A DNA stretch of 56,145 nt from a phage. The position numbers were made by a program, and so were the translations under genes. This document shows positions 1 through 54,408 of this stretch, one piece after another. The stretch lies in the sequence record PZ386950.1, one strand, 5' to 3'. Below the pieces are notes generated by a model. The model did no database searches, was not told where the DNA came from, and worked only from the letters and a program-made list of their open reading frames with translations. Position 1 is the first letter of the stretch. Every line of letters begins with the position of its first letter.

Positions 1-1764
1 ATGAATAAGTTTACTGGAAATATTCATAATTACCCGCGCTGGCGTGATGCCTACGCAAATGACGAACGTATCTGGCGAAAAGGTCAGCCACGCCCGGATT
101 ACAAACAGTGTTACATTGACCGTATTAACCTGTTAAATCGTATGCGCACGGATCGGGCAATTGTCCCGGTACTGAAAAAGTATTACGAAACAAACCCGGT
201 AGCGTTCATTCTTGACTGGGCGTTTACTTATGACCCGCGTAACGTCGGTACTGAATACCCGCCAAATATGCCTTTCTGCCTGTTCGAACGTCAAATCGAC
301 ATGGTTCAGTTTGTTTACGAAGCGCTTGAAGACAAAGAAAAAGGGCTTTGGGAAAAATCGCGAGATTATGGTGCAACCTGGGTAGCTTGTGGTTTGTCCG
401 TGTGGGCGTGGCTGTATCGTCCTGGTTCTTCAGTTGGCTGGGGATCACGTAAAGAGCAGCTTGTCGATAAACTGGGTGACCCGGATAGTATTTTTGAAAA
501 GATTCGCCAGATTATCCGTGCATTACCACCGGAATTACGCCCTGTTGGTCTGCGTGAAAAAGACCATCTGGTTTACATGAAATGTATCAACCCTGAAAAC
601 GGTGCGACAATTACTGGTGAAGCTGGCGATAACATCGGTCGTGGTGGTCGTAAATCTGTCTATTTTTTGGATGAAGCGGCACACGTAGATCGTCCTGAAC
701 TGATTGAAGCGTCGTTGTCAGCTAACACCAACGTTCGTATCGACATCAGTTCAGTTAATGGCGTTGGTAATGTTTTTTATCGTAATCGTAAAGCTGGTCT
801 GGAATGGGAACCGGGCAAGAAATTACCCCGTGGTAAATTGCGTGTAATGGTTCTTGACTGGCGTGATCACCCGGCTAAAGACGATGAATGGTATAAGCGA
901 GAAAAACAATCGTTCGCTGAAAAAGGTTTACAGCATATTTTCGCACAGGAAGTTGACCGCGATTATGCCGCTGCTGTTCAGGGTGTACTGATTAAAGCTG
1001 AATGGGTTCGCGCTGCTTTTGACGCTTTCCGTGACACAGAATGGCGCAAAGCTAATGGACTACTTACACCAACAGGTCAACGTATCGCCGGACAGGATGC
1101 CGCAGACGGTGGTGAAGACGCAAGCGCACTGGTAATTGCTCACGGTGTATTCCTGACACATCTACAACTTGACCACAGAGGCGCTGAACTGGCTGCACCA
1201 GGGATGTTGACGATGGCTAATATGCTGGGTGTTGATGAATATTGGTACGAAGTTAACGGTGTTGGTACAGGCGTTAAAGTAGCGGCAAATGACCGGAAAG
1301 ATACTTTACGCTTCCGTGTGCGCCCGTGGTTACCGAATGGAAAAGTTGTGGATCCGGGTGGTGATATTATCGGTGGTACGAAACCTGGCGATAAAGACCG
1401 TAAATCAAACAAAGATTATTTCTCAAATTATAAAGCACAGGCATCGTGGGCGTTACGCCTGCGTTGTCAGCGAATTTATAAATGGTATGTGGAAGGTCAA
1501 CCACAGGATCCGGACGAAATCATTCTGATTGATCCATCACTGGAAAATGCACAACGGTTAGAAGCTGAGTTAAGTCAGCCAACGTATACCAGTAACGGTG
1601 CCGGGAAGATTGTGATCGACAAGAAACCAAACGGAAGTAAGTCGCCAAACTTTTTCGATGCTGCGGTTATTGCACTATCACCAAAACGCACTGAATTTGT
1701 CGAAGAACCATTTACTGGTGGTGTGAATCCTGTTGGTACGCCTGATTACGGTGACATTTTTTAA
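1..1764 (+). CDS. terL: terminase large subunit
   Basis: 587-aa ORF; Walker-A-like KSRDYGATWV near N-terminus and acidic nuclease-like C-terminal half typical of phage large terminases; followed by two hairpin terminators. Confidence 0.85.
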   Translation: MNKFTGNIHNYPRWRDAYANDERIWRKGQPRPDYKQCYIDRINLLNRMRTDRAIVPVLKKYYETNPVAFILDWAFTYDPRNVGTEYPPNMPFCLFERQIDMVQFVYEALEDKEKGLWEKSRDYGATWVACGLSVWAWLYRPGSSVGWGSRKEQLVDKLGDPDSIFEKIRQIIRALPPELRPVGLREKDHLVYMKCINPENGATITGEAGDNIGRGGRKSVYFLDEAAHVDRPELIEASLSANTNVRIDISSVNGVGNVFYRNRKAGLEWEPGKKLPRGKLRVMVLDWRDHPAKDDEWYKREKQSFAEKGLQHIFAQEVDRDYAAAVQGVLIKAEWVRAAFDAFRDTEWRKANGLLTPTGQRIAGQDAADGGEDASALVIAHGVFLTHLQLDHRGAELAAPGMLTMANMLGVDEYWYEVNGVGTGVKVAANDRKDTLRFRVRPWLPNGKVVDPGGDIIGGTKPGDKDRKSNKDYFSNYKAQASWALRLRCQRIYKWYVEGQPQDPDEIILIDPSLENAQRLEAELSQPTYTSNGAGKIVIDKKPNGSKSPNFFDAAVIALSPKRTEFVEEPFTGGVNPVGTPDYGDIF

Positions 1765-1771
1765 ACAGTGT

Positions 1772-1796
1772 GGCGGGATTATTCCCGCCCGTTTTC
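1772..1796 (+). terminator. rho-independent terminator after terL
   Basis: GC stem ggcggg-attatt-cccgcc followed by cgttttc. Confidence 0.55.
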
Positions 1797-1879
1797 AGAG
1801 GGTTTACCAGTCCGTTCATAGTACCGTTACAGTTTTCCGCGTTCACGTTTAGGCCTTTTGTATTTTACTGATCGACTTC

Positions 1880-1906
1880 GCCCCGGAAAGTTCCGGGGCT
1901 TTTTTC
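1880..1906 (+). terminator. rho-independent terminator
   Basis: stem gccccgg-aaagtt-ccggggc followed by tttttt; overlaps 3' end of convergent minus-strand gene. Confidence 0.7.
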
Positions 1907-2180
1907 AACGTCTGAAAGATGAAAGAACAGCGAGGCTAACAGAACCTAAACCGAATATGACGGCGTATGTTAGCTGATGTTGAAGTTTCACAAAACCGTA
2001 ATAATCGCTTTGTAATTCCACGATGTCAAAAGCAATTGAAAAACTGGTTGCCAACAACATGATTGAAAGAACACGAATCAGAGCAACCGCTAACCCTATA
2101 ACACCTTGTTCTTTTTTCTCAGTTGTAACAACGACAACAATCATTAACAGAAGTGAGAAAGCAATGTACATGTATTCCAT
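1905..2180 (-). CDS. small membrane protein (about 3 predicted TM helices)
   Basis: 91-aa ORF with hydrophobic stretches LLLMIVVVV, IGLAVALIRVLSIMLLA, AVIFGLGSVSLAVL. Confidence 0.5.
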   Translation of the reverse strand: MEYMYIAFSLLLMIVVVVTTEKKEQGVIGLAVALIRVLSIMLLATSFSIAFDIVELQSDYYGFVKLQHQLTYAVIFGLGSVSLAVLSSFRR

Positions 2181-2340
2181 AATTATTAGTCCCGATAAAC
2201 TTCAGCACACCCATAAATTTTACCAGGGTTGTAAGCCTGTTCAGCTTGTAACGCACCCTGACACTGTTCGAACGTCATGATACGTTCTGTCACAGGTTCA
2301 ATAGCCACACCATGAAGAACGAGCACCAGTACGTAACCAA

Positions 2341-2688
2341 TTAACATTTTCTTAGAGTCTCCCGCCAGTTCAGCCCGTGTAGGTTTACAAAGCCGATACT
2401 TAGAACATTAAGTGAATCGCTAATCCAGTAACGGTTGTTACGTTGTGGTTCTTCATCAAAACAAAAAACTTCACCGTCACGATCTGTTGATATGTATTTT
2501 GCAAATAAAGGAACTTGTAATTCAAGTCCAAAATAATTAACTGTCTTATAACAACTTTCAATCAGTGTCATTTTACAATCTGGCGCTTCTTCGTGGATAT
2601 CCCACGATTTACCACAGTGTGAACACTGATATTCATCGTTACAGCGAATAGCGTTTACATGATTCATGATTATTCTCCTGTTATTCAA
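2341..2688 (-). CDS. hypothetical Cys-containing protein
   Basis: 115-aa ORF with CxxC (CSHCGKSW) and further Cys; tightly packed with neighbours in same orientation. Confidence 0.5.
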   Translation of the reverse strand: MNNRRIIMNHVNAIRCNDEYQCSHCGKSWDIHEEAPDCKMTLIESCYKTVNYFGLELQVPLFAKYISTDRDGEVFCFDEEPQRNNRYWISDSLNVLSIGFVNLHGLNWRETLRKC

Positions 2689-2885
2689 TTGACTAAGTAA
2701 TAAATGTTATCACGGGCCAATTCATCAGCGTCTTCCTGACATTCGATTAAGGTGTTATCGTCATGCCATTCTTTAGCACATTCACGCGCTTGCTTACGAC
2801 GTTTTTTCTTACTGTTACGAAGGTCTAAAAATATTTTTAATTCTTTATCATAAGCTCTTACCATACGTTTCATTGTACTTTTCAT
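2685..2885 (-). CDS. hypothetical basic small protein
   Basis: 66-aa ORF, 4-nt overlap with downstream gene, K/R-rich. Confidence 0.45.
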   Translation of the reverse strand: MKSTMKRMVRAYDKELKIFLDLRNSKKKRRKQARECAKEWHDDNTLIECQEDADELARDNIYYLVN

Positions 2886-2887
2886 GA

Positions 2888-3154
2888 TTATTCTCCTATT
2901 GCTTTAGCAACAATAGCTTTCATTTTCATATAAAGTTCATATTCAGAATTACGTTTTGCGATAGCTAATTGTAAAACTTTTAACAGTTCCGGCGCTGCAG
3001 CGATTAATCGTGCGTTTGCTAATTGTTCTGTTTTGTCACCGTTATAAGTTGGTGTATATGCAATCTCAACACCTGAGTCTGAAACAATATCGGGAGTATT
3101 ATCATCATTGATAATAACTTTCCACGAACCTTTTGTACCTTTAAACTGGTTCAT
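2888..3154 (-). CDS. hypothetical protein
   Basis: track ORF 2888..3187 trimmed to internal ATG at 3154 (MNQFKG...) so it no longer overlaps the upstream gene. Confidence 0.45.
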   Translation of the reverse strand: MNQFKGTKGSWKVIINDDNTPDIVSDSGVEIAYTPTYNGDKTEQLANARLIAAAPELLKVLQLAIAKRNSEYELYMKMKAIVAKAIGE

Positions 3155-3159
3155 AATTA

Positions 3160-3582
3160 TTACCCTGCGTCCTGAATATCTTCCCATTTTTCATCGGATA
3201 CATTTTGCCCATAAACACCGCCGTAAAAATAATTTTCACCGGGCCAAACGATACTACCACCATAATAACCGTTCGAACTATTACGATAGTCAATAACCAA
3301 ATCGCCTTTATCAGTGGTTATTTTTGCACCGTAGAACTGAAGACATTCATATTCTTCATTTTCTAGCGGTTCTTTGTTCATATCTAAATCGTCGCAAGCA
3401 ATGACGGTAAACGGAAAACCCAATGCAGGAAGTTCTACTGATTCAATCCATGTATACGAACAGCAATCAGCATCAACGCGAACGATCAGTTGCTGACCAT
3501 CATCAGTGACAAAAAGAAGTGCTTCTTTATCCGAAGCGATTTGCATTTTAACGATTTTCTTATTCAATAATAAGTTATTCAT
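3160..3582 (-). CDS. hypothetical protein
   Basis: 140-aa ORF, ATG preceded by aagg; same orientation as block. Confidence 0.5.
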   Translation of the reverse strand: MNNLLLNKKIVKMQIASDKEALLFVTDDGQQLIVRVDADCCSYTWIESVELPALGFPFTVIACDDLDMNKEPLENEEYECLQFYGAKITTDKGDLVIDYRNSSNGYYGGSIVWPGENYFYGGVYGQNVSDEKWEDIQDAG

Positions 3583-3585
3583 AAT

Positions 3586-3732
3586 TCAAAACCCCTTACT
3601 TTTAGCAATTTGTTGTGCACGTTTTTTAGTGTGACCAGTGACAATCAAGCGTTTAATTTCGGCTTTACGACGTTCAAAGTGATCGGCGCGTGAATTTTCA
3701 ACCAGTGACCGGCTAATATTTCTCGGATTCAT
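3586..3732 (-). CDS. small basic protein (about 48 aa), first gene after promoter
   Basis: ATG at 3732 about 30 nt downstream of predicted -10 at 3764-3769; not in ORF track (below 60 aa); translation MNPRNISRSLVENSRADHFERRKAEIKRLIV... Confidence 0.3.
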   Translation of the reverse strand: MNPRNISRSLVENSRADHFERRKAEIKRLIVTGHTKKRAQQIAKSKGF

Positions 3733-3763
3733 AGTCTCGTACCCCTGTTCATTTGATGACTAA

Positions 3764-3803
3764 AGCATAATCGCACGTTTGCAATCCGTCAAGAATTATT
3801 TTA
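3764..3803 (-). promoter_or_regulatory. sigma70-type promoter with UP element (conserved family, copy 1)
   Basis: minus-strand AAAATAATTCTTGACGGATTGCA, 17-bp spacer, TATGCT; identical core recurs 11 times in window. Confidence 0.6.
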
Positions 3804-3874
3804 ACACCGTGCAAAAAAACCATCACTGATATAACATACGTTAAGAACCGTAAACCGTATGGAGCCTGTAGAAC

Positions 3875-5230
3875 ATGGCTGATCAACAATTCGAACAACT
3901 AGCCGTTGCCGGGTACAGTCGAACAGGCAACCAGGTAAACGACGATTTCCTTCCTAAGCTGAACGGTAAACAAGGCCGTCGTATTCTTCGTCAGATGGCT
4001 GAGAACGACGAAACGATCGGTGGTGTACTGTTTGCCATGAGCAGTGTTTATCGTTCTGTACAGTGGATTTTTGACCCGTCTGACAAAGATGATCCAGAAG
4101 CTATCCGTTATTCAGAATGGTTACAGGACGCTATTGAAAATAAAATGGGTGATCCGCGTGGTGCACTCCCGGATGATACCTGGTCCGCGTTCGTTCAGAC
4201 ATGGACAGACGTTGATGTATTCGGCTGGGGTTGGTATGACATTTGGGTGAAAGACCTTGATGATGGCACGGTGGGTATTGCCCGTCTGGTTCCTGTAGCA
4301 CCTGAAACGCTTGCTGGATGGGATATTGAAGAACCGACAGGTTATGTTCGTGGTATTTATCAACGTTCACCTAACCAGGGTACAACGACGTTAATCACGC
4401 GTGACCGTTCGCTTCATTTGATTTCAAGTCCGAATAAAGGTAACCCGGAAGGTTTATCACTGCTGCGCACAGCTTATCGCCCGTGGTACTACAAAAAAGT
4501 GAATATGGAAATCGAATCCATACTTGCCGAACGTGGTACAGGGTTCCCGGTAATTACTGTTAACGCAGATATTAAAAAAGCGGCTAATGATCCTAATGTT
4601 CCTGAACAACAGCGTCAGGCAGCACAGGCGATGATTGATAACTATGAAAACATCGTCGCTAATATCAAACGCAATGAACAATCAGGACTGGTGATTTATT
4701 CTAAACCGTATATCACGGGTTATGATAACGAAACAGGTGTTACCACGTATGGTGGTGAACAACAGGTGAAACTGGAATTCGTTACACCTAACCAGACCAG
4801 TTCTGTGGATATTGACCGGACGATTAAACGTCTGGATACCAGTATTGCCCGTGCGTTACTGGCAGACTTTTTATTTTTTGGCAGTTCGGGTAATACAAGT
4901 AATGGTGCTAACCTGGGTAATCGTACTGAACTGTGGATCCGCGCAATGCAATCACGTATTGATAGTATTGTAGAATGTGTTAATCGTCAGTTGATACCGC
5001 AGTTATGGTCGTTAAACGCATTTCCTGATGAATACCGCCCGTCGATTCGCGCCGGGTCAATCAGTAAAGACAGTATCGAAACGTTGACTACGGCACTTGC
5101 TCGTTTAGCACAAGCTGGTGCGCCTGTATTCCCGGATCCAGACCTTCAGGAATACGTATATAAAGAGGCGGGTCTACCTATTACGGGGATTGATAAAGCC
5201 GGAGACGGATTACCGTCTATTGACGACTGA
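3875..5230 (+). CDS. portal protein
   Basis: 451-aa ORF directly downstream of terminase region; size, acidic C-terminus and position typical of portal proteins. Confidence 0.8.
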   Translation: MADQQFEQLAVAGYSRTGNQVNDDFLPKLNGKQGRRILRQMAENDETIGGVLFAMSSVYRSVQWIFDPSDKDDPEAIRYSEWLQDAIENKMGDPRGALPDDTWSAFVQTWTDVDVFGWGWYDIWVKDLDDGTVGIARLVPVAPETLAGWDIEEPTGYVRGIYQRSPNQGTTTLITRDRSLHLISSPNKGNPEGLSLLRTAYRPWYYKKVNMEIESILAERGTGFPVITVNADIKKAANDPNVPEQQRQAAQAMIDNYENIVANIKRNEQSGLVIYSKPYITGYDNETGVTTYGGEQQVKLEFVTPNQTSSVDIDRTIKRLDTSIARALLADFLFFGSSGNTSNGANLGNRTELWIRAMQSRIDSIVECVNRQLIPQLWSLNAFPDEYRPSIRAGSISKDSIETLTTALARLAQAGAPVFPDPDLQEYVYKEAGLPITGIDKAGDGLPSIDD

Positions 5231-5233
5231 ATG

Positions 5234-5266
5234 AAAAAGGGACCGTTTCTGGTCCCTTAATTTTTA
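5234..5266. terminator. bidirectional rho-independent terminator
   Basis: stem agggacc-gtttct-ggtccct flanked by aaaaa upstream and taattttt downstream, between convergent genes. Confidence 0.7.
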
Positions 5267-5596
5267 CTTAGTTTCAGGCTGCACGATTGACAGTAATTTA
5301 CTCGCTTCATCAACCGCAGTCTGAATACGAGTCTGTAACGGATAACTGTTGTTGATCGCACGTTCCAGCGTTTTATCAAGCAATTGCAGTTTGACTTCAT
5401 CATCGCCAGTGAACGCGTACATATCAGCAACGACTTCTTTAAACTGTGATGCTTGCTCAACAATAGTCGTGGTTACAATGTATTTCCAGACTTTGTTTAG
5501 CAGTTTAAATTTCACTTCGTTATCAGCAACTGCATCAACCAGAATTTCAGCAGCAGTCTTGTCATATTTAACAAGTTCAAGAATTTCAAAACGCAT
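5264..5596 (-). CDS. hypothetical protein
   Basis: 110-aa ORF in minus-strand block. Confidence 0.5.
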   Translation of the reverse strand: MRFEILELVKYDKTAAEILVDAVADNEVKFKLLNKVWKYIVTTTIVEQASQFKEVVADMYAFTGDDEVKLQLLDKTLERAINNSYPLQTRIQTAVDEASKLLSIVQPETK

Positions 5597-5611
5597 TTAA
5601 GTCTTCTCCTG

Positions 5612-5956
5612 TCAGTTAACATACTTCGCGATTAGTTTATCACAGTCCTCGCGACAGGTAGCATACTTAAACAGGTCACTGGCTGCTTCTGCCCGGTAGT
5701 CAGTATCAATGGTGTAATGTTCATTGACATAGTTATAGGCTGCAAGGTAATTGCTGAACATCCCCGTGGTTACCACTTTCGGTAGTTCCCTTACGACCTT
5801 ACCGTTAAACAGATATGCGATTACCAGAATCAGACCACCGATCACAGGACTTGTGAGAAATGCGATAAAGAACCATGCACCAGGATTACGACCCGTTTGT
5901 TTGGCAACACCCGCGACAACCAGACAGAAAAGAATCCATAAAATAGTGAATAACAT
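5612..5956 (-). CDS. membrane protein
   Basis: 114-aa ORF; strong RBS AAGGAGG 7 nt upstream of ATG; two hydrophobic helices in N-terminal half. Confidence 0.6.
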   Translation of the reverse strand: MLFTILWILFCLVVAGVAKQTGRNPGAWFFIAFLTSPVIGGLILVIAYLFNGKVVRELPKVVTTGMFSNYLAAYNYVNEHYTIDTDYRAEAASDLFKYATCREDCDKLIAKYVN

Positions 5957-5986
5957 GATTGTGTCCTCCTTTGTTTTGATGTTTGT

Positions 5987-6027
5987 AGGTTACACGTCCT
6001 TGTGTAATCCGTCAAGAATTATTTTAA
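5987..6027 (-). promoter_or_regulatory. sigma70-type promoter with UP element (copy 2)
   Basis: minus-strand AAAATAATTCTTGACGGATTACA plus 17-bp spacer and TAACCT. Confidence 0.55.
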
Positions 6028-6267
6028 ATTATCGTATACAGGCGGTAAACCCATTGCTGCCTGAACAGACCGTTTTTCGTATTCCTCCCGAAGTTTCTGA
6101 AGCCGTTCAATACCGATGTCACAACCACGCATAATATCAGCGCACAGATCGTTGTAGGTCGCTTCAGATTGCTTGCTGTGTGGGTAATCAACACAGGATG
6201 GATCTGCCATAATGACTTTCGGCAGATACGCGACAGTATCGCCCATTGCGTTTTTAAATATCGTCAT
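6019..6267 (-). CDS. hypothetical protein
   Basis: 82-aa ORF; 3' end overlaps promoter copy 2. Confidence 0.4.
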   Translation of the reverse strand: MTIFKNAMGDTVAYLPKVIMADPSCVDYPHSKQSEATYNDLCADIMRGCDIGIERLQKLREEYEKRSVQAAMGLPPVYDNLK

Positions 6268-6593
6268 AAATACGACCCCACAATTGCTGCACAGTTGACG
6301 ATCGCTAAACGCGTTGCTTTTTCACGGTCTTCTCCGTGGCTAACTGGTTGCTTATAACTAACGCCAGTGTCAGGGTTATTAACCGTCACTTCGTTGTCAC
6401 GAATATCCAGATCCATGTACATGTTAACCATCAGACTGAAAGCATCCTCATTACGTGTAAGAGGGTTCCACAGGCGACCGTTGCCTATATCAATACCTTC
6501 GTTTATGTAACGTTCGTCGTACGCGACGTAATATTTACCATGGATTTCAGCAGCCCGTGCTGCGTTGACTAATAAATCACGATTGTTCATCAT
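6264..6593 (-). CDS. hypothetical protein
   Basis: 109-aa ORF, 4-nt overlaps with both neighbours. Confidence 0.5.
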   Translation of the reverse strand: MMNNRDLLVNAARAAEIHGKYYVAYDERYINEGIDIGNGRLWNPLTRNEDAFSLMVNMYMDLDIRDNEVTVNNPDTGVSYKQPVSHGEDREKATRLAIVNCAAIVGSYL

Positions 6594-6949
6594 ACCCGTC
6601 CTGTTGTACGTTTATATTCTTGAACACAGTAATCAAAGTATTCACCATATGTTTTAACATAATTAATTAGTTCAATTATTACGTCACCGTGGCATGGTTT
6701 AGGGGAACAGAAACAAACTAAATCTTTACCATCTAATGATAAAATATCAGATTTAGTTATGTTTCCTTTCAAACATTCATTCCATAACCATGTTTTATAA
6801 CGAAATAATGTCGCACCTCGTTCTTCATTTTCCGAAAGTTTAAAAGGGTTTGCGAATTTACTTTGTGTTAACCCTTTACCACCGCGACCGATATAAACAG
6901 CACCTTCTGGGATTTGTTTACCAATACGATAGAAGTTTAACACTCTCAT
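6590..6949 (-). CDS. DUF4326-like protein
   Basis: track ORF trimmed to ATG at 6949 (MRVLNFY...); motifs FANPF and CFCSPKPCHGD recalled as DUF4326 hallmarks. Confidence 0.45.
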   Translation of the reverse strand: MRVLNFYRIGKQIPEGAVYIGRGGKGLTQSKFANPFKLSENEERGATLFRYKTWLWNECLKGNITKSDILSLDGKDLVCFCSPKPCHGDVIIELINYVKTYGEYFDYCVQEYKRTTGRV

Positions 6950-6950
6950 G

Positions 6951-7455
6951 TTACATGTTCCCCGTTGATCCAAACCCGCCATTACGCTGACTATCAACAT
7001 CTGGTAATTCTTCCACTTCAACCAGGTTAACAGGTTCGACACGTTCAACCATGAGCTGACAAACACGTTCACCGTCTGCGATAGTCTGTAATTTCTGCCC
7101 GTGGTTAGTCAGCGTAACGTAGTATTCTTCTTTGTAATCACGATCACCGATACCCACACAGTTGATTAGTGACAAACCGTGTTTAAGACTCATGCCGGAA
7201 CGTGGATAGAATTTAATGCAATATCCGCTATCAACTGACATTTTCAGACCAGTGGGGATCATAGCGCGGTCGCCGGGCCATAATGCGATTGTTCCTGCAA
7301 CAACCGGACGTTCCACTTTAGCGCCTGATTCTGTGAATATAGTTACCGATTCTTCCCACAGACAAGCACGAACGTCTAACCCTGCGCTGTCTGGTGTTGC
7401 CCGTGTCGGAAGTTCAGCGTGGGGTGTTAGTTTTTTTGATATACAGGTTAGTCAT
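6951..7455 (-). pseudogene. dut: dUTP diphosphatase interrupted by frameshift in A7 run
   Basis: all five dUTPase motifs present (AGLDVRA, PRSG, GIGDRDY, RVCQLMV, GGFGSTG); motif 1 lies upstream of the track ORF in a frame with no start codon; ATG at 7455 with RBS GAGGAA is in the +1 frame and joins after the A7 run at 7431-7437. Confidence 0.75.
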
Positions 7456-7489
7456 TGTTTGATTCCTCAGTGTGTTTCGTTCGTGACAA

Positions 7490-7531
7490 ATGTTAGTGTT
7501 ACTGCTTGCAATGTGTCAAGAATTATTTTAA
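7490..7531 (-). promoter_or_regulatory. sigma70-type promoter with UP element (copy 3)
   Basis: minus-strand TAAAATAATTCTTGACACATTGCA then about 17-18 bp and TAACAT-like -10. Confidence 0.55.
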
Positions 7532-7562
7532 ACTTCTGTCAACGTTAACCAATGAGGAACGA

Positions 7563-8222
7563 ATGATGTTTGAACATCCGTGGAACATACCTGCATATGA
7601 TGCTGAAAGTGAAAAACAATCACTTGACTATCGAATGTACGCACCAATTTTAAGAAATCCGTCACAAATTATGGAGAATGCTGATGACTTTGAAATCTTT
7701 GAAAAACGCCCTTGTGGTCCAGCAACACCTGTCAAAACAAAACTGTTAATGACACCGAAAGCCCGTGGTAATACTTACGAAGAATTCATTGCGACCGGGT
7801 GGAATGACGACCAGTTAGTCGAACATGGTTATGCTGTTCGTACTACAGACAAACGTTCCTGGTCACCAATGACCGTCGGAACTGAAACAATTACACCACC
7901 TTCAAACTGTCGGTGCACATTCACCCCTGTTCAACAACCATCAACAGCGTCTGACTTGCTGAAACAGGCTGAACAGCTACTGACAGAACGTGGTAAGCAG
8001 TATGACACGTCTGGTCAGGAACGTTCGTCAGCTAAAATCGTTGCTGCGTTTAACACAATTACCGGGCGCGACTTAACACCGGGTGAAGGGTGGTTGTTCC
8101 TGATGTTGTTAAAAGCGGTTCGTTTCTATTCCAACACTGAAACACCACATCGTGACAGTCTGGAAGACCTGATCAGCTATGCTGCATTACACGCAGAGGA
8201 ATATCTTAACGATGAACGGTGA
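7563..8222 (+). CDS. hypothetical protein with conserved 35-aa module and all-alpha C-terminal domain
   Basis: track ORF trimmed to ATG 7563 (RBS tgaggaa); contains TYEEFIATGWNDDQLVEHGYAV module shared with the SSB-like protein. Confidence 0.5.
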   Translation: MMFEHPWNIPAYDAESEKQSLDYRMYAPILRNPSQIMENADDFEIFEKRPCGPATPVKTKLLMTPKARGNTYEEFIATGWNDDQLVEHGYAVRTTDKRSWSPMTVGTETITPPSNCRCTFTPVQQPSTASDLLKQAEQLLTERGKQYDTSGQERSSAKIVAAFNTITGRDLTPGEGWLFLMLLKAVRFYSNTETPHRDSLEDLISYAALHAEEYLNDER

Positions 8223-8394
8223 ACAAGCATTCGACCTTCTGGTTAAATACGACATTATTGTTATTCACTGTGACCGTGAACAAATCGTTTTCACAGACGA
8301 TCTTCGTTATGAAGAACCTTATGACGGTGATAAACGGTCAGCCACGATTCGGTTAATCGAACGTGTGGCACGTGACAGAGGGGAACTATTATAA
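8212..8394 (+). CDS. hypothetical small protein
   Basis: internal ATG at 8212 overlapping upstream stop. Confidence 0.4.
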   Translation: MNGEQAFDLLVKYDIIVIHCDREQIVFTDDLRYEEPYDGDKRSATIRLIERVARDRGELL

Positions 8395-8588
8395 TGGTTC
8401 AAACTATTTCTGAATTACTACCCACCGTTTATGGCAACGTGACAGAACTTGCCAGGCGGATTGGGTGTAACAAAGCGACAGTTTATAAATACATGGATGA
8501 CACCAACGGTGAATTTCACGCAGTGGTGAATGGTAAGTTGATGGTCAGACCCGGTTTTAAAGGACGTTATACTCGTGACAAAAGATGA
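8394..8588 (+). CDS. small putative DNA-binding protein
   Basis: 64-aa ORF; ELARRIGCNKATVYKYM resembles helix-turn-helix. Confidence 0.45.
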   Translation: MVQTISELLPTVYGNVTELARRIGCNKATVYKYMDDTNGEFHAVVNGKLMVRPGFKGRYTRDKR

Positions 8589-8732
8589 AAAATTATTACG
8601 TGAACTTGAAATAGACTACGAACGAGCGCAAAAAGCGTTACAGTTTCTGGAAGAACAGATCCGCGAAGTTAAGAACCGCATTCAGGGAACTGAAAAACGT
8701 AATCTTCCACGCCCGTAACACGTGATATAATC

Positions 8733-8761
8733 AGCCTCAGTGTGTTAACTGAGGCTTTTTT
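8733..8761 (+). terminator. rho-independent terminator
   Basis: stem agcctcag-tgtgttaa-ctgaggct followed by ttttt immediately before ATG of next gene. Confidence 0.65.
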
Positions 8762-9721
8762 ATGGCTACTAAAGACCCATACCCGGATATTTCAGACAAG
8801 TATGACGCTCGTATTCGCGAAGCACTTGATGTCGTGTGGGAAAACGTGCGTCGTAGTGAGTCGTTAGCTAACCTGGAATACATCATTGAAACTCAGGGTA
8901 TTGCCGGATTACTCCCCATTCTTGAAACACTCCCTGATGAACTTAGTGCACAGTTGCGCCCGGTTATTGAAGATGCGATCGCCGAATCAGGTCGTGTAGT
9001 CGTTCAGGTTTTACCGAAAGCGGCTGTGACAGGTCCGGTTGTGTTCAGTCTGGTCACCCCACAGGTCAGTACATACATCAACAACTATGTCGGGCAACTG
9101 ATCCGTGAAGTCAGTGATGAAACAGTCAAAGCTGTTCAGATTGCAGTTAACCAGGGTGTGGTAACCGGACGAAATCCGCGTCAGATAGCCCGTGATTTTC
9201 GATCATCAATAGGGTTAACAACACGGCAGGAAATGACGGTTCAACGTCTGCGATCAGCACTGGAAAAAGGTGAAGCAGGTTATGTGAACAGTCTGACCAC
9301 TGTTACAGACAGTGCAAAGAACGCTGTAAGTGCCGGGAAACTATCACAGGCGAAGATTGACCAGATAATCGAACAGACACGCTTGCGTTATGTAAAACAG
9401 CGCACAGAGACGATTGCGCGTACTGAATCACTTCGTGCTGTATCAGTTGGTCAGGATAAGGCTATTCGTCAAGGGCAGGTTACCGGGGCTATTAGTAATG
9501 AATTGCTGAAGCGCTGGTTATACAGAAAGGATGGTAGGACACGTGACGCGCATATTTCCACGGGCGAAACGAACGGCTGGATACCAATGGACAGACCGTT
9601 TTCAACACCGTTAGGACCACTTATGTTTCCTCGTGATCCTAACGGTAGTGCTGCGAACACGATCAACTGCAGGTGCCGGGTTCAGTATAGTTTACCTGAA
9701 GATATTGGTTCACTGGGTTAG
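8762..9721 (+). CDS. head morphogenesis protein (Mu gpF / SPP1 gp7-like)
   Basis: 319-aa ORF with C-terminal NTINCRCRV motif typical of F-like head morphogenesis proteins. Confidence 0.7.
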   Translation: MATKDPYPDISDKYDARIREALDVVWENVRRSESLANLEYIIETQGIAGLLPILETLPDELSAQLRPVIEDAIAESGRVVVQVLPKAAVTGPVVFSLVTPQVSTYINNYVGQLIREVSDETVKAVQIAVNQGVVTGRNPRQIARDFRSSIGLTTRQEMTVQRLRSALEKGEAGYVNSLTTVTDSAKNAVSAGKLSQAKIDQIIEQTRLRYVKQRTETIARTESLRAVSVGQDKAIRQGQVTGAISNELLKRWLYRKDGRTRDAHISTGETNGWIPMDRPFSTPLGPLMFPRDPNGSAANTINCRCRVQYSLPEDIGSLG

Positions 9722-10227
9722 ATGTGACACGGCATTACAATCATATATGCATCGTTTGGAAAATGAATATGAACCGGTCGATTAGAACTTTGCATACTAA
9801 TTTTTGCTTTACACACCCCGAAATATTTAGCCGCTTTAGCAGCGTCGTTTAAATATTGCAAATTCAGTCCGATTTCCGAAATTTTACATTCATCATAGCG
9901 AGCAACTCTACGCCAGTCTGGGTAACGCCCGTCAACAATGTCCAATGGTGTTTGTTGAACAGTCTCACCATTAACATCACAAAATGTTGCTGTATTATGT
10001 GTCACATCGATTAATACATGGTCAAATTTAGCTGGTGCTTTACCTTTAACAGATACAATAACAGTTTCATCATCTGTCATTGCTTTACCAACGAACATCC
10101 TGTAACCATCGGTTGACACAATAAAACCATCACTGTCAATACAGACCCCGTTGAAACAACAACGAACGTCGTTTTTTGCAGCGCAAAGAATTGCACACAT
10201 AAATTCAGGTCTACTAACTCTAATCAT
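9718..10227 (-). CDS. single-domain DNA polymerase III beta-clamp-like protein
   Basis: 169 aa from ATG 10227; VRCCFNGVCID...STDGYRMFV and IVDGRYPDWRRV closely match DnaN motifs (RYYLNG...ATDGHRLAV; LVDGRFPDYRRV). Confidence 0.6.
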   Translation of the reverse strand: MIRVSRPEFMCAILCAAKNDVRCCFNGVCIDSDGFIVSTDGYRMFVGKAMTDDETVIVSVKGKAPAKFDHVLIDVTHNTATFCDVNGETVQQTPLDIVDGRYPDWRRVARYDECKISEIGLNLQYLNDAAKAAKYFGVCKAKISMQSSNRPVHIHFPNDAYMIVMPCHI

Positions 10228-10499
10228 TCCTGTTTCTCCCCGCAGAACGGACAATAAGACATTTTGATGTTGGTTTCCAGGCGTGTGAAGTTCTTCGCCA
10301 GTTCACCGTTTTTCTTTTTGGCACGGTATGCAAGACGATATTTCAACATAACGTGAATTTTACCAGACGTCAGACCGAAACACTGATTATCCCAGCCAAC
10401 TTTATCAAACAGGTTAGTGCTGACTTCCGAACCTACTGGTACTTTTACCATCAGACGTTTTTGAAGTTCGTCACCAACTTTTTTCATGCAATCACACAT
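10224..10499 (-). CDS. zinc-ribbon protein
   Basis: 91 aa, N-terminal CDC and C-terminal CPFCG. Confidence 0.5.
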   Translation of the reverse strand: MCDCMKKVGDELQKRLMVKVPVGSEVSTNLFDKVGWDNQCFGLTSGKIHVMLKYRLAYRAKKKNGELAKNFTRLETNIKMSYCPFCGEKQE

Positions 10500-10660
10500 T
10501 ATGTATACCTCGATAGACGTTTTAATTTAACTATTAATCTTGTGACTTTACTCCAGTCAGATTCAGTAAAGTCGTCCACGTCTTTAGCCCATAACTCATT
10601 AACATGTCGTGGGTTATATGGTTCTTTCTTGACAGGCTGTTTCCGTTTCTTTTTACCCAT
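10499..10660 (-). CDS. small basic protein (about 53 aa)
   Basis: ATG at 10660 with GGGGAA RBS; TAATG overlap with downstream gene; not in track. Confidence 0.35.
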   Translation of the reverse strand: MGKKKRKQPVKKEPYNPRHVNELWAKDVDDFTESDWSKVTRLIVKLKRLSRYT

Positions 10661-10663
10661 AGG

Positions 10664-11044
10664 TTATTCCCCAGGGTGACGGATATTCAGATCCGGGAGA
10701 ATTTGCATCGGGTTAAACGTAACACGATAACGATACTGATCTGTTGGTGAAGGGTCTGTTTGTTCAATGAAATAAGTTACCTCCGTGGTTAACCCCATAA
10801 AGTGTTTCTTAACGTCGTTCGGACCAGTTTTACAGGTGATTTCGATCTCTTTGCTAGTGTTCTCACGGGCACAACGACCTTCGATAGACAAAAGATACTC
10901 ACCGTTACGAACATTATAGAAAACGATACGACGATTTACTTCAAAGTTAGCTGCAGCGGTTGCAACGTTACGACTGGCAACATCAGCAGCGTTATCACAG
11001 GCTGTCAGGGTTGTTAACATTGCGCATAGAATCAGTTTCTTCAT
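10664..11044 (-). CDS. lipoprotein
   Basis: MKKLILCAMLTTLTAC: signal peptide with lipobox LTAC. Confidence 0.65.
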   Translation of the reverse strand: MKKLILCAMLTTLTACDNAADVASRNVATAAANFEVNRRIVFYNVRNGEYLLSIEGRCARENTSKEIEITCKTGPNDVKKHFMGLTTEVTYFIEQTDPSPTDQYRYRVTFNPMQILPDLNIRHPGE

Positions 11045-11059
11045 TTTAGTGTCTCGGAG

Positions 11060-11461
11060 TTATTTAATGATTAATGTTGGTTGTAAGTCTTCTTCATACC
11101 AAGTCCAACCAATGCATGTACCATCTTCAGCATCAACATATGGTTTCAACCAGTCGATAAATTGTTCAATCTCACCACCATAATTTTTAATATCGCTACG
11201 ACTAAAAATATATTGAGTATCGGTGAAATCAAATTTAGGACAACTATTTATTACTTCCGGGTGATGATAAAAACTGCTACAACTACCAATAAAATTCCAT
11301 CTGGGGAGACTGAAAAACTTATGTTGTGGTAGTTTCTCTGGTTCTTTTTCACCACAGAACATGTGTGCAATAATAGCTTTCACATCCACAGGTACATCTG
11401 CTTTAATCTGACACTTCAACACTAATTCGGTATACATTCCCATTTTCACATCCTCATTCAC
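11060..11461 (-). CDS. hypothetical protein
   Basis: 133-aa ORF; alternative start at 11443 has better RBS (GAGGA). Confidence 0.5.
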   Translation of the reverse strand: MNEDVKMGMYTELVLKCQIKADVPVDVKAIIAHMFCGEKEPEKLPQHKFFSLPRWNFIGSCSSFYHHPEVINSCPKFDFTDTQYIFSRSDIKNYGGEIEQFIDWLKPYVDAEDGTCIGWTWYEEDLQPTLIIK

Positions 11462-11489
11462 CAGCGACCCATTGTCGCTTCCTGTAATA

Positions 11490-11530
11490 AAGATATCCTA
11501 CCGTCTGTAATCCGTCAAGAATTATTTTAA
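11490..11530 (-). promoter_or_regulatory. sigma70-type promoter with UP element (copy 4)
   Basis: minus-strand TTAAAATAATTCTTGACGGATTACA plus 17 bp and TATCTT. Confidence 0.6.
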
Positions 11531-11619
11531 AGATACAGTTAATACAGAACGTGTACTAACTGTACATGGTTTTACATAGGTTTCATGATTTTGAGTTGCA
11601 GCTAATACTGAATCTGTAT

Positions 11620-11760
11620 TAGTAGATCATAGATTCATAGATCGCGTCATGTTTATTTTTGACCAACCCATCTCTATCTTATTCTTTTTATTATCTTTTT
11701 ATAGAAAACATAGAAAACATAGATAAATAGAAGAGTAGTATAAGTAGTAAAAGTTGCTGC
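11620..11760. repeat. AT-rich element copy A (about 90 percent identical to 50985-51125)
   Basis: cgtcatgtttatttttgaccaacccatctctatcttattctttttattatctttttatagaaaacatagaaaacatagata matches second copy nearly base for base. Confidence 0.8.
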
Positions 11761-11816
11761 AAGTAGGAGAGGTTTAAAAGGTATAGAGAGTCGCATACTT
11801 CCCATGAATCTATACG

Positions 11817-11856
11817 TAAAATAATTCTTGACGAATTACACCGACACAACTACTCT
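11817..11856 (+). promoter_or_regulatory. sigma70-type promoter with UP element (copy 5, plus strand)
   Basis: AAAATAATTCTTGACGAATTACA plus 17 bp and TACTCT. Confidence 0.55.
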
Positions 11857-11886
11857 GTGGTTAAGAAAACAAGAAGGGTTGAATGT

Positions 11887-12255
11887 ATGGATCCGAACAT
11901 CAGAGTTGCCACAGACGAATTCATTCGTCGCGCCTGTAAAATTCATGGTGATCGTTACGACTACTCATTCAGCATTGTTGAAGATAGTTCCAGCACAGTG
12001 GTTATTATTGACCGTGAAACTAATACAGTGTTTTTCCAGGTTGTCGCTGAACATCTGGACGGTGTTGAACCAGTAACGACTGCTGTTGAACCGGTAACGA
12101 CTGCTGTTGAACCGGTAACGACTGTTGTTGAACCGGTCAAGAATCTTTCTGAGACATTCGGTAACGTTGCAAACAGCGTGTATCACCAGTGCAATTATTC
12201 ATCTGAAATGTTAGAATTTAGTCATGTTGAAACAATACGAGGACAGTCCCCGTGA
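11887..12255 (+). CDS. hypothetical protein with VEPVTTA tandem repeats
   Basis: track ORF starts at GTG inside the promoter -10; trimmed to in-frame ATG 11887 with RBS AAGAAGGG. Confidence 0.55.
   Translation: MDPNIRVATDEFIRRACKIHGDRYDYSFSIVEDSSSTVVIIDRETNTVFFQVVAEHLDGVEPVTTAVEPVTTAVEPVTTVVEPVKNLSETFGNVANSVYHQCNYSSEMLEFSHVETIRGQSP
12064..12137 (+). repeat. 21-bp coding tandem repeat (about 3.5 copies)
   Basis: gttgaaccRgtaacgactgct repeated, encoding VEPVTTA. Confidence 0.85.
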
Positions 12256-12662
12256 TAAATGTAAAAGTCAGCAAAACAGACCCCGGTTTACGAATGGTAT
12301 TCGGCTGGGGAACGATTTGTAAGAAAAGAAATTCTGAAAACGGTTTGTTAGAGGAGTACATCGACACTGACAACGAAATATTTCCCGAAGATGTTGTTCT
12401 AAAAGCATGGTTGGAATTCATGTCTGGCGACCAGCGTATTATGGACAATATGCACAATGAACAACCTGTAGGGAAAGTTGTGTTTGCGTTCCCGATGACT
12501 GAAGACATTGCGGAAAGTTTTGGGCTGGTTGATAAACTGGATCAGACAGGCATCATTGTTGGTACGTTGATAACTGATGACGAAGTTTTGAAAAAGTTTC
12601 AGACTGGTGAATATACGGGCTACAGCATCGGTGGTTCAGCTTATTATAAGGATGTGGAATAA
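12252..12662 (+). CDS. putative prohead protease (S78/U35-like catalytic region)
   Basis: MHNEQPVGKV and TGEYTGYSIGG resemble His and Ser motifs of HK97-type prohead proteases as I recall them; position before scaffold and capsid. Confidence 0.45.
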   Translation: MINVKVSKTDPGLRMVFGWGTICKKRNSENGLLEEYIDTDNEIFPEDVVLKAWLEFMSGDQRIMDNMHNEQPVGKVVFAFPMTEDIAESFGLVDKLDQTGIIVGTLITDDEVLKKFQTGEYTGYSIGGSAYYKDVE

Positions 12663-14331: not shown

Positions 14332-14334
14332 CCG

Positions 14335-50980: not shown

Positions 50981-50984
50981 AAAG

Positions 50985-51125: not shown

Positions 51126-51374
51126 AGTGTATTAGCTGTAAATAGAGCTAAAATAAAAGTCTGGGAGATACCTATTGTAATCTATGTTTTTATGCAAGTC
51201 TTTGAAATTATTGTGATTATTGGATACGTATTTATGTATGTGATCGAAAATTAGTGCATGTTGTGCACTAACTGTAAACTTAATACTAACGTTGTATTAG
51301 CTGTAAAACAGGGCGTGTGGACAACCCGTGGGTATCTGTGGGAAACTAATTTAAAATTTATGGGAGACAAATTT

Positions 51375-52312: not shown

Positions 52313-52325
52313 GATTACCCTCGTA

Positions 52326-52350
52326 TTAAAAACCCCGGTTAGTTCCGGGG
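52326..52350 (-). terminator. rho-independent terminator (minus strand)
   Basis: stem ccccgg-aactaa-ccgggg followed by ttttt on minus strand. Confidence 0.55.
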
Positions 52351-52359
52351 TAATGTTCA

Positions 52360-54403: not shown

Positions 54404-54408
54404 ACTGA

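What the first reader, a model, noticed from the sequence alone, without database searches (positions are those of the whole stretch)
1..11856. Structural genes interleaved with reverse-oriented early gene blocks
terL, portal and head morphogenesis genes are each separated by minus-strand blocks of small genes (1905-3732, 5264-7455, 9718-11461) driven by the conserved promoter, and terS lies about 5 kb away from terL across another minus-strand block (52109-55816). Packaging and head genes are usually contiguous, so this looks like repeated insertion of promoter-led cassettes.
Basis: partly seen in the sequence, partly recalled or inferred. Interest (0 to 1): 0.5.

Follow-up and report, generated by a model that had tools for sequence, protein, structure and literature searches.

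The report
Head genes interleaved with reverse operons
This is the complete genome of a 9NA/Sasha-type E. coli phage whose packaging and head genes are separated by backward-facing operons of small genes; the layout is real but is an old, inherited and already noted hallmark of this phage group, not a recent series of insertions.

Summary
terS, terL, portal and the head-morphogenesis gene lie on the + strand as separate units. Four minus-strand blocks of 5-12 small genes separate them. Each block is headed by a copy of one promoter, AAAATAATTCTTGAC (11 copies; 0.3 expected by chance).

The interpretation (recent, repeated insertion of promoter-led cassettes) is mostly not supported.
- The same four blocks sit in the same slots in E. 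coli, Salmonella and Klebsiella relatives, and in Proteus and Morganella relatives (portal about 60% identical).
- Same-strand orthologs such as the dUTPase diverge in step with the structural genes.
- The promoter copies share only a 28-nt core; their flanks are unrelated.
- Differences from the closest relatives are mostly single promoterless genes swapped at exact gene boundaries.

Only two small modules behave as promoter-led cassettes. Distant relatives (portal about 30%) are all-forward, so the interleaving is derived but ancient.

The same promoter heads the replication operon, so the blocks probably belong to the early regulon. The forward units carry a different, conserved extended −10 element. 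Casjens et al. (2014) already noted the interspersed small genes in 9NA. This is an ordinary member of a known group.

The parts
51258..52010 (+). terS (small terminase); relatives annotate a shorter form that would start at 51375
   Evidence: PHROG terS E=2.6e-12; 82-99% identical to terS of relatives
52109..55970 (-). Reverse block A (terS-terL interval): about 11 small genes including an RdgC-like gene at 52853-53767
   Evidence: minus-strand terminator 52332-52351
56065..56079 (-). Early-type promoter copy heading block A (-35 TTGACA, -10 TATAGT)
54433..54447 (-). Internal early-type promoter copy in block A
1..1764 (+). terL (large terminase)
   Evidence: 92-100% identical to E. coli, Salmonella and Klebsiella relatives
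56114..56122 (+). Conserved TGTATAGAA element 24 nt before the terL ATG; candidate forward (-10 type) promoter
   Evidence: footprint alignment; motif count
1772..1899 (+). Two forward-facing terminator hairpins after terL (1772-1791, 1880-1899). The single CGTTTTC at 1790-1796 marks the empty site of a 2 kb promoter-led forward module present in AVIO78A, Bas82, PJ16 and Sasha
1905..3732 (-). Reverse block B (terL-portal interval): 7 small genes of unknown function (one DUF7448)
3788..3802 (-). Early-type promoter copy heading block B
3827..3835 (+). TGATATAAC extended -10 element 40 nt before the portal ATG, conserved in E. coli, Salmonella and Klebsiella relatives
3875..5230 (+). Portal gene
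5237..5258 (.). Bidirectional terminator hairpin at the convergent portal / block C junction
5264..7455 (-). Reverse block C (portal-hmorph interval): 7 genes including DUF2560, a DUF4326 insertion (6590-6949) and a frameshifted dUTPase (6951-7455)
6011..6025 (-). Internal early-type promoter copy in block C
7515..7529 (-). Early-type promoter copy heading block C (first gene is the dUTPase)
7563..8718 (+). Forward unit of four small genes (DUF6378 protein, NinH-like protein and others), divergent from block C
8723..8761 (+). TGATATAAT extended -10 element followed at once by a conserved hairpin (8733-8756) and a U6 run, directly before the hmorph ATG
   Evidence: z = -6.0
8762..9721 (+). Head morphogenesis gene (SPP1 gp7-like)
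9718..11461 (-). Reverse block D (hmorph to head operon): RusA-like gene, Phage_VG64 ('RDF') family gene and three unknowns. Its stop codon overlaps the hmorph stop, with no terminator between
11514..11528 (-). Early-type promoter copy heading block D
11818..12255 (+). Plus-strand early-type promoter copy plus a 123-132 aa gene with VEPVTTA repeats. This clade-specific promoter-led module replaces the TGATATTAT-type element that precedes the head operon in 9NA, Sasha and Klebsiella phages
12252..15354 (+). Head operon: XkdF-like protease, a 419-aa protein, a decoration/scaffold-like protein, and the major capsid protein
   Evidence: annotations of relatives

Best explanation
The window is a complete, circularly permuted genome of a 9NA/Sasha-type siphophage of E. 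coli. Its packaging and head genes keep the canonical order (terS, terL, portal, gp7-like head morphogenesis, protease/scaffold/capsid) but are split into separate forward transcription units. Between them lie four backward-facing operons of small, mostly uncharacterised genes.

Shown: each backward operon starts with a copy of one strongly conserved sigma-70-type promoter (A/T-rich UP-like element, TTGAC(G/A), 17-18 nt spacer, weak TAnnnT -10). The same promoter heads the replication operon (exonuclease, SSB, DNA polymerase) and two other non-structural units.

Inferred: the backward operons are therefore part of the host-polymerase-driven early/middle regulon.

Shown as conserved sequence, inferred as function: the forward units carry a different kind of element, an extended -10 (TGATATAAY type) with no -35, about 40 nt before the ATG of portal, hmorph and the holin, and before the head operon in relatives. 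These elements sit back-to-back with the reverse promoters in short divergent spacers.

Convergent ends are insulated by hairpin terminators. The portal / block C junction has a bidirectional one. The hmorph / block D junction has only overlapping stop codons.

The layout is inherited. It was fixed in the common ancestor of the E. coli, Salmonella, Klebsiella, Proteus and Morganella members of the group. Since then it has served as a fixed scaffold inside which single accessory genes are gained, lost and swapped at exact gene boundaries.
For: Identity of the phage: 95-96% nucleotide identity to AVIO78A, Bas82, PDP46 and PJ16; 89% to Sasha; 83% to 9NA.

Conserved layout: the same order and strands in 10 GenBank relatives and 11 IMG/VR loci.

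Orthologs: same-slot, same-strand orthologs exist for most reverse genes. All five called genes of block C have one in Sasha or 9NA (68-92%) and in Klebsiella phages (50-69%). The dUTPase is 52-55% identical in Proteus and Morganella phages. These identities track those of the anchor genes.

Promoter: 11 copies against 0.3 expected. Core pairwise identity is 85% against 28-34% in the flanks. Orthologous copies are present in E. coli, Salmonella and Klebsiella relatives. The variant AAAATATCGCTTGAC heads all four reverse blocks of Morganella Henu15, and a similar variant heads the pre-portal block of Proteus PM-CJR.

The promoter also drives replication genes.

Forward-type elements are conserved across genera. 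All three TGATATAAY sites in the genome precede the first gene of a forward late unit, including the lysis cassette.

Terminators.

Gene-level flux: breakpoints against AVIO78A, Bas82, PJ16 and PDP46 fall at gene boundaries and involve promoterless single genes.

Polarity: distant relatives (portal 24-31%) are all-forward, usually with portal and hmorph adjacent; the Vibrio phage (42%) is intermediate.

Published note: Casjens et al. [quoted passage not shown]
Against: There are no transcription data, so 'early' and 'late' are inferred only from which genes share a promoter class. One copy of the early-type promoter (11818, + strand) points into the head operon in this clade, which blurs a strict early/late split. 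TGATATAAY is not enriched by count (3 against 1.5 expected); its support rests on position and cross-genus conservation, and two of the three sites suggested the motif in the first place. terL and the tail-chaperone unit carry a different element (TGTAYAGAA), and no clear forward promoter was found for terS. Reverse blocks B and D lack canonical terminators at their 3' ends, so insulation is incomplete. Most reverse-block proteins have no known function.
Confidence: 0.8

Rival explanations
1. One reading: the packaging/head module was contiguous until recently, and each reverse block is a recently inserted cassette led by its own copy of the promoter.
For: Every block does begin with a promoter copy and has lower GC than the structural genes. 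Distant relatives have portal, hmorph and protease adjacent. Two small modules really are promoter-led presence/absence units: the forward module after terL, bounded by the 7-bp repeat CGTTTTC in AVIO78A with a single copy here (the same empty-site junction occurs in IMG/VR loci L014 and L015), and the 11818 promoter plus gene 11857-12255.
Against: All four blocks are present in the same slots in every relative, down to about 60% portal identity, and orthologous genes within them diverge in step with the anchor genes. The promoter copies share only a 28-nt functional core, so they are not recent duplicates. Variation among close relatives is by promoterless single genes at gene boundaries.
Confidence: 0.05
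2. The blocks arose in the ancestor by inversion of pre-existing forward clusters of small genes, not by insertion of foreign DNA.
For: The Vibrio relative has 6 forward small genes between terL and portal, and IMG/VR loci L051, L052 and L069 have 13-17. In 9NA, Sasha and AVIO78A the terL-portal interval still holds a forward module next to the reverse block.
Against: No homology was detected between the forward small genes of the Vibrio phage and the reverse genes here (separate clusters). In many distant relatives portal and hmorph are directly adjacent, so nothing was there to invert in that interval.
Confidence: 0.12
3. The reverse ORFs are shadows of forward reading frames or chance ORFs, and the interleaving is a gene-calling artefact.
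For: Many are short (48-140 aa) and lack any Pfam family.
Against: Their codon-usage scores favour the minus strand. PHROG matches reach E=1e-55. dUTPase, RdgC-like and RusA-like functions are recognisable. Orthologs are annotated on the same strand in more than 10 genomes. GC skew is negative across the stretches that hold the blocks.
Confidence: 0.01
4. The interleaving is kept by selection as a regulatory device. Back-to-back promoters of two mutually exclusive classes, together with convergent transcription, would produce the early-to-late switch through promoter competition, antisense RNA or a phage factor that disables -35-dependent initiation.
For: The scaffold is conserved across five host genera while its contents turn over. 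The two promoter designs are consistently paired in short divergent spacers. Blocks B and D lack canonical terminators, and the hmorph and RusA-like stop codons overlap, so convergent read-through is plausible. The hmorph -10 element sits 2 nt before a conserved terminator hairpin, so its own transcripts would start inside the 5' arm and escape termination.
Against: There are no expression data. No anti-sigma or activator homolog was recognised among the roughly 40 small and anchor proteins scanned. The 11818 early-type copy faces the head operon. Conservation of the layout could simply reflect that insertions are tolerated only at the boundaries of transcription units.
Confidence: 0.18

Closest known systems
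Salmonella phages 9NA, Sasha, Sergei, Solent and E. coli phages AVIO78A, KarinMuster (Bas82), PDP46, PJ16 (Nonanavirus/Sashavirus group)
   Same: Same gene order, same four reverse blocks in the same slots, the same promoter 15-mer at the head of each block, and 83-96% nucleotide identity. Casjens et al. 2014 already remarked on the many small genes interspersed among the virion genes.
   Different: This genome lacks the 2 kb forward module after terL. It carries a RusA-like gene whose only same-slot homolog found is in Morganella phage Henu15, at 32%. It has an extra DUF4326 gene and a frameshifted dUTPase. I could not read Zeng et al. 2019 (J Virol 93:e00848-19), so I cannot say whether the promoter classes are already described there.
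Proteus Gorganvirus phages (PM-CJR, PmiS-Isfahan) and Morganella phage Henu15
   Same: The same interleaved scaffold at about 60% portal identity. The dUTPase sits in the block after portal. Sister promoter variants occur: AAAATATCGCTTGAC heads all four reverse blocks of Henu15, and AAAATATGGCTTGAC heads the pre-portal block of PM-CJR.
   Different: Almost all other block genes are unrelated. There is an extra reverse block before hmorph, and only one reverse gene between hmorph and the head operon.
Morons of lambdoid phages (Hendrix/Juhala concept: promoter + gene + terminator units inserted between late genes; recalled from my own knowledge)
   Same: Own promoter, lower G+C than neighbours, location between structural genes. 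The forward module after terL and the 11818 module fit this well.
   Different: The four reverse blocks are multi-gene operons shared by all relatives, not presence/absence units. Two of them lack canonical terminators. They share their promoter with the replication genes and so look like core early operons, not add-ons.
T4-type genomes, with early and late genes interspersed and distinct promoter classes (-35-dependent early promoters; late promoters defined by a -10-region element alone; recalled from my own knowledge)
   Same: Interspersed units of opposite orientation, and two promoter designs, one rich in UP/-35 signal and the other with only a -10-region element.
   Different: No homologs of AsiA, MotA, gp55 or gp33 were recognised in the proteins scanned. 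The forward elements here look like ordinary extended -10 sigma-70 promoters, not TATAAATA. Nothing was tested experimentally.
Vibrio phages of the 1.270.A type and uncultured IMG/VR relatives (portal 24-43% identical)
   Same: Homologous terL, portal, hmorph, protease and capsid genes in the same order. Small genes separate terL from portal in several of them.
   Different: The small genes are forward-oriented. Portal and hmorph are usually adjacent in the distant set. Only the Vibrio lineage has a reverse block after portal. The 15-mer promoter is absent from the Vibrio phage 1.270.A locus, even allowing 3 mismatches; the IMG/VR loci were not scanned for it.

Membership tests
9NA-like phages (Nonanavirus/Sashavirus group) | High nucleotide identity to group members over most of the genome | tested here: met
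   95-96% to AVIO78A, Bas82, PDP46 and PJ16 over 76-89% of the first 12 kb; 89% to Sasha; 83% to 9NA
9NA-like phages (Nonanavirus/Sashavirus group) | Genome of 52-58 kb that is largely syntenic, with virion genes in canonical order and many small genes interspersed | tested here: met
   The window is 56,145 bp. The synteny maps and per-slot ortholog table agree with 10 relatives. The description is from Casjens 2014
9NA-like phages (Nonanavirus/Sashavirus group) | pac-type headful packaging with circularly permuted virion DNA | not testable with these tools
   Only indirect evidence: terL is 97-100% identical to that of 9NA, Sasha and the E. coli relatives, and the window ends are adjacent in relatives. 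Packaging is an experimental property
Moron (autonomous promoter-gene-terminator insertion in a late operon) | Own promoter | tested here: met
   A motif copy heads each reverse block
Moron (autonomous promoter-gene-terminator insertion in a late operon) | Own terminator | tested here: inconclusive
   Block C ends at a bidirectional terminator and block A has one at 52332-52351. Blocks B and D have no hairpin followed by a U-tract in their own orientation
Moron (autonomous promoter-gene-terminator insertion in a late operon) | Present in one phage and absent between the same two genes in close relatives | tested here: not met
   All four reverse blocks are present in every relative, down to about 60% portal identity. 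The feature is met only for the forward module after terL (absent here) and for the 11818 module
Moron (autonomous promoter-gene-terminator insertion in a late operon) | Base composition different from the flanking genes | tested here: met
   Blocks have GC 0.375-0.43 against 0.45-0.48 for terS, terL, portal and hmorph
T4-like sigma appropriation (AsiA/MotA) or other phage-encoded switch of promoter class | A phage-encoded anti-sigma or co-activator protein | tested here: inconclusive
   No such family appeared among the roughly 40 proteins scanned with PHROGs or Pfam. Many small proteins have no family at all, and the scan did not cover the whole genome
T4-like sigma appropriation (AsiA/MotA) or other phage-encoded switch of promoter class | Two promoter classes with different dependence on the -35 element | tested here: inconclusive
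   Sequence shows a UP/-35-rich class with a weak -10 and an extended -10 class with no -35. Function and timing are untested

The most novel reading that the evidence does not exclude
The interleaving is not just tolerated clutter. It would be a conserved regulatory circuit, built from -35/UP-dependent reverse early promoters and -35-independent extended -10 forward promoters paired back-to-back, with partly uninsulated convergent units. The early-to-late switch would then work by promoter-class discrimination (for example a still unrecognised small early protein that targets sigma-70 region 4) and/or by antisense interference. The promoter-inside-a-terminator arrangement before hmorph would be one module of that circuit.
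Probability: 0.15. Interest if true: 0.55.

Novelty: new member of a known kind. Interest (0 to 1): 0.22.

Why it matters
It matters little as a discovery. The layout is the family signature of 9NA-like phages, and this genome is one more member. It is useful in three modest ways. First, it corrects the natural reading: the layout is ancient scaffold plus gene-by-gene turnover, not recent cassette insertion. Second, it gives a compact, testable transcription map for a phage group whose gene expression does not appear to have been studied, judging from the papers I could search. Third, the reverse blocks are clearly delimited plasticity zones under one strong promoter, which makes them obvious places to look for host-takeover or anti-defence genes, or to insert payloads when engineering these phages.

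Tried and rejected
1. Zeng et al. 2019 (J Virol; PMC6819911), the main genomics paper on this group, is not in the library. Other papers citing it say nothing about strand architecture or promoters. 'Already described' therefore rests on Casjens 2014 and on the GenBank annotations.

2. A greedy longest-ORF gene call picked wrong-strand ORFs (5751-6134+, 10353-10679+). I replaced it with codon-usage scoring.

3. TGATATAAY as a late-promoter motif: the count is not significant (3 against 1.5), and relaxed versions are at background. I kept it only as a positionally conserved footprint.

4. TGTAYAGAA: 4 against 1.3 expected, weak.

5. ACCCGTGG: enriched (7 against 1.6), but most copies lie inside genes; left unexplained.

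6. The generic promoter scan found no excess of sigma-70-like sites overall (28 against 28.4), so it is uninformative on its own.

7. Rfam and tRNA scans of the whole window found nothing.

8. Pfam on 20 small proteins from the interleaved region gave only DUFs, so no regulator candidate emerged.

9. No clear forward promoter was found for terS, or for the pfk-like unit beyond an overlap with the reverse UP element.

Full report
WHAT THE WINDOW IS. The first 12 kb match E. coli phages AVIO78A, KarinMuster (Bas82), PDP46 and PJ16 at 95-96% nucleotide identity. They match Salmonella phage Sasha at 89%, 9NA at 83% and Klebsiella phages at about 80%. The window begins at the terL ATG. Its two ends are contiguous in relatives: a single alignment to AVIO78A runs from window 56058 through 1796. 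It is therefore a complete, circularly permuted 56,145-bp genome of a 9NA/Sasha-type siphophage.

CHECK OF THE OBSERVATION. PHROG profiles identify terL (1-1764), portal (3875-5230), an SPP1-gp7-like head-morphogenesis gene (8762-9721) and terS (51258-52010). ORF calls scored with a codon-usage model trained on the window's own long genes give a clean alternation:
- terS forward;
- 11 reverse genes (52109-55970);
- terL forward;
- 7 reverse genes (1905-3732);
- portal forward;
- 5 reverse genes called at 5264-7316 (the block runs to 7455 and holds 7 genes once the DUF4326 gene and the full dUTPase are counted);
- 4 small forward genes (7563-8718) and hmorph;
- 5 reverse genes (9718-11461);
- then 15 kb of uninterrupted forward head and tail genes.

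The reverse ORFs are real. Most hit PHROG families, with E-values down to 1e-55. They include a dUTPase, an RdgC-like protein and a RusA-like resolvase. GC skew turns negative across the stretches that hold them, and their GC content is 0.375-0.43 against 0.45-0.48 for the structural genes.

The 'conserved promoter' is AAAATAATTCTTGAC. It has 11 copies against 0.30 expected. Minus-strand copies head all four blocks (3802, 7529, 11528, 56079), and internal copies lie at 6025 and 54447. On the transcribed strand the layout is regular: TTGAC(G/A), a 17-18 nt spacer, a TAnnnT box, and a start codon preceded by a ribosome-binding-site-like sequence 56-74 nt from the start of the motif in 10 of 11 copies.

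IS IT RECENT INSERTION? No. The same scaffold, with reverse blocks in the same four intervals, is present in the following genomes:
- AVIO78A, Bas82, PJ16 and PDP46;
- Sasha and 9NA;
- Klebsiella phages BU9 and Carvaje;
- Proteus phage PM-CJR and Morganella phage Henu15 (portal 60-63% identical).

It is also present in all 11 close IMG/VR contigs. A per-slot table shows same-interval, same-strand orthologs for most reverse genes. In the portal-hmorph block, all five called genes have an ortholog in Sasha or 9NA (68-92%) and in the Klebsiella phages (50-69%). The dUTPase persists in the Proteus and Morganella phages (52-55%). These identities fall in step with those of terL, portal and hmorph, which is what vertical inheritance in place predicts. 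A recent paper on phage TayeBlu also lists dUTPase among the conserved core and near-core genes of the wider family.

The promoter copies are not recent duplicates. Pairwise identity is 85% over a 28-nt core but 28-34%, which is background, in the flanks. Orthologous sites in E. coli, Salmonella and Klebsiella relatives keep the 15-mer. Morganella Henu15 heads all four of its reverse blocks with the sister variant AAAATATCGCTTGAC, and Proteus PM-CJR has a similar variant heading the block before its portal gene.

HOW THE BLOCKS ACTUALLY VARY. Alignment breakpoints against the closest genomes fall at gene boundaries and involve single, promoterless genes:
- an extra 54-aa gene at 52692-52856;
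- a DUF4326 gene inserted at about 6606-6960 between the dUTPase and its neighbour;
- a RusA-like gene (9718-10254) that replaces an unrelated small gene;
- single extra genes in AVIO78A relative to the window.

Two exceptions do behave as promoter-led cassettes.

(i) In AVIO78A a 2 kb forward module of four genes starts exactly at a promoter variant (TTTTTAATTCTTGACAAATTACA), immediately after the terL terminator. It is bounded by a 7-bp direct repeat, CGTTTTC, and the window keeps a single copy of that repeat at 1790-1796. The identical empty-site junction occurs in IMG/VR locus L015, and with four substitutions in L014. PDP46 lost most of the module through different breakpoints.

(ii) The plus-strand promoter copy at 11818, together with the gene at 11857-12255, replaces a 148-nt segment of 9NA, Sasha and Klebsiella phages. 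It is confined to the E. coli clade.

POLARITY. Fifteen IMG/VR loci with portals only 24-31% identical are essentially all-forward. Many have portal directly followed by hmorph, and some then have the protease. Several have 13-17 forward small genes between terL and portal. Vibrio phage 1.270.A (portal 43%) is intermediate: it has forward small genes between terL and portal, and a reverse block plus a forward block between portal and hmorph. The interleaving is therefore derived, but it was fixed before the enterobacterial lineages diverged. As a statement about this genome's recent history it is not.

HOW IT PROBABLY WORKS. Tandem copies of the same promoter at 38302 and 38365 head the operon encoding an exonuclease, a gp2.5-like SSB and the DNA polymerase. 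The copies at 43246 and 45822 head units that include a DNA methyltransferase and a ParB-like protein. I therefore infer that the reverse blocks belong to the early/middle, host-RNA-polymerase regulon.

Phylogenetic footprinting of the divergent spacers shows a second kind of conserved element on the forward strand:
- CTGATATAAC ends 40 nt before the portal ATG.
- GTGATATAAT ends 31 nt before the hmorph ATG (TGATACAAT in Klebsiella phages).
- CTGATATAAT ends 44 nt before the holin ATG.
- TGATATTAT, TGATATCAT and TGATACTAT precede the head operon in 9NA, Sasha and Klebsiella phages.

These are extended -10 (TGnTATAAT-type) elements with no recognisable -35. terL and the tail-chaperone unit carry a related TGTAYAGAA.

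The early-type promoters have the opposite design: a strong UP-like element and -35, and a weak -10.

At hmorph the -10 element lies 2 nt upstream of a conserved, very stable hairpin followed by U6 (z = -6.0). Transcripts coming from the upstream small-gene unit should terminate there. Transcripts started from this promoter would begin inside the 5' arm of the hairpin and escape termination. This is inference.

The convergent junctions are only partly insulated:
- a bidirectional terminator at 5237-5258;
- a minus-strand terminator at 52332-52351;
- two forward-only terminators after terL (the second, at 1880-1899, corresponds to the terminator that ends the forward module in AVIO78A);
- overlapping stop codons with no hairpin at 9718-9721.

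CAVEATS. No expression data exist. The TGATATAAY count is not significant on its own. The 11818 early-type copy points into the head operon. No forward promoter was recognised for terS. Nearly all reverse-block proteins are DUFs or orphans.

COMPARISON WITH WHAT IS KNOWN. The closest known things are the published relatives themselves. Casjens et al. [quoted passage not shown] The GenBank annotations of more than ten relatives show the same strand pattern. I could not access Zeng et al. 2019, so I cannot tell whether the promoter classes are already described.

The blocks resemble morons in having their own promoter and lower GC. They fail the defining presence/absence criterion, and they share their promoter with core replication genes. 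Only the two small modules above qualify as morons. The two-promoter-class logic resembles the T4-type early/late organisation in principle, but no homologous regulators were found.

VERDICT. The architecture is an ancestral, already noted hallmark of a known phage group, so interest is low. The most novel reading still open is that the back-to-back pairing of promoter classes and the convergent units form a selected early-to-late switch. That is plausible but unsupported by any expression data.

Noticed in passing
window 7431-7437 (minus-strand gene 6951-7455): The dUTPase, first gene of reverse block C, has a run of 7 A's where AVIO78A has 6. This shifts the frame after codon 8, so the ORF from ATG 7455 stops after 14 codons and the rest of the protein continues in another frame down to 6951. 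It is either a homopolymer sequencing error or a real inactivation.
   Followed up: partly
window 6590-6949 (-), inserted segment about 6606-6960: A DUF4326 gene (Pfam E=3e-20) is inserted precisely between the dUTPase and the next gene, compared with AVIO78A, Bas82, PJ16 and PDP46. It has no promoter of its own.
   Followed up: yes
window 9718-10254 (-): The RusA-like resolvase gene (PHROG E=4e-41) has no counterpart in any E. coli, Salmonella or Klebsiella relative examined. Its only same-slot homolog is in Morganella phage Henu15 (32% identity). Its stop codon overlaps the stop of the convergent hmorph gene.
   Followed up: partly
window 11627-11740 and 50995-51103: An A/T-rich element of about 80-110 nt (92% identical over 79 nt) occurs twice, upstream of the head operon and upstream of terS. 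Both copies are conserved at the same two places in AVIO78A, Bas82 (head-operon copy), PJ16, PDP46, Sasha and 9NA. It could be a shared late regulatory region.
   Followed up: partly
window 50791-51295: Five or more copies of a motif of about 16-21 nt (TTAGTGCAYGTTGTGC / TGCAYGTTGTG) are spread over 500 nt upstream of terS and into its 5' end. They could be binding sites linked to pac or terS, or iterons.
   Followed up: no
window 8723-8761: A perfect extended -10 (TGATATAAT) lies 2 nt before a conserved 9-bp hairpin followed by U6, which abuts the hmorph ATG. The GAGG in the 3' arm of the hairpin is the only Shine-Dalgarno-like sequence. The arrangement is conserved in E. coli, Salmonella and Klebsiella relatives with variable loops.
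   Followed up: partly
window 29418, 30548, 34348, 44083, 47730(-), 51324, 56101: The octamer ACCCGTGG occurs 7 times against 1.6 expected (0 of 100 shuffles reach that), 6 of them on the + strand. Two copies lie just upstream of terS (short start) and terL; the others are inside genes. Unexplained.
   Followed up: no
window 12063-12142; 35401-35760; 50072-50226: In-frame tandem repeats occur inside genes: a 21-nt unit, VEPVTTA three times plus a fourth imperfect copy (VEPVKNL), in the clade-specific gene 11857-12255; 30-nt units in the gp2.5-like SSB gene; and 21-nt units in the gene 49967-50770.
   Followed up: no
window 1880-1899, 19404-19426, 20198-20220, 52103-52125, 52332-52351: Terminator hairpins across the genome share nearly the same stem, (G/A)CCC(C)GG...CCGGG(G)(C/T). 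This suggests a reused terminator module.
   Followed up: no
L051, L052, L069 (IMG/VR contigs; portal 28-30% identical): These distant relatives have 13-17 forward-oriented small genes between terL and portal, while portal and hmorph are adjacent. Separation of terL from portal by small genes may therefore be much older than the reverse orientation.
   Followed up: partly
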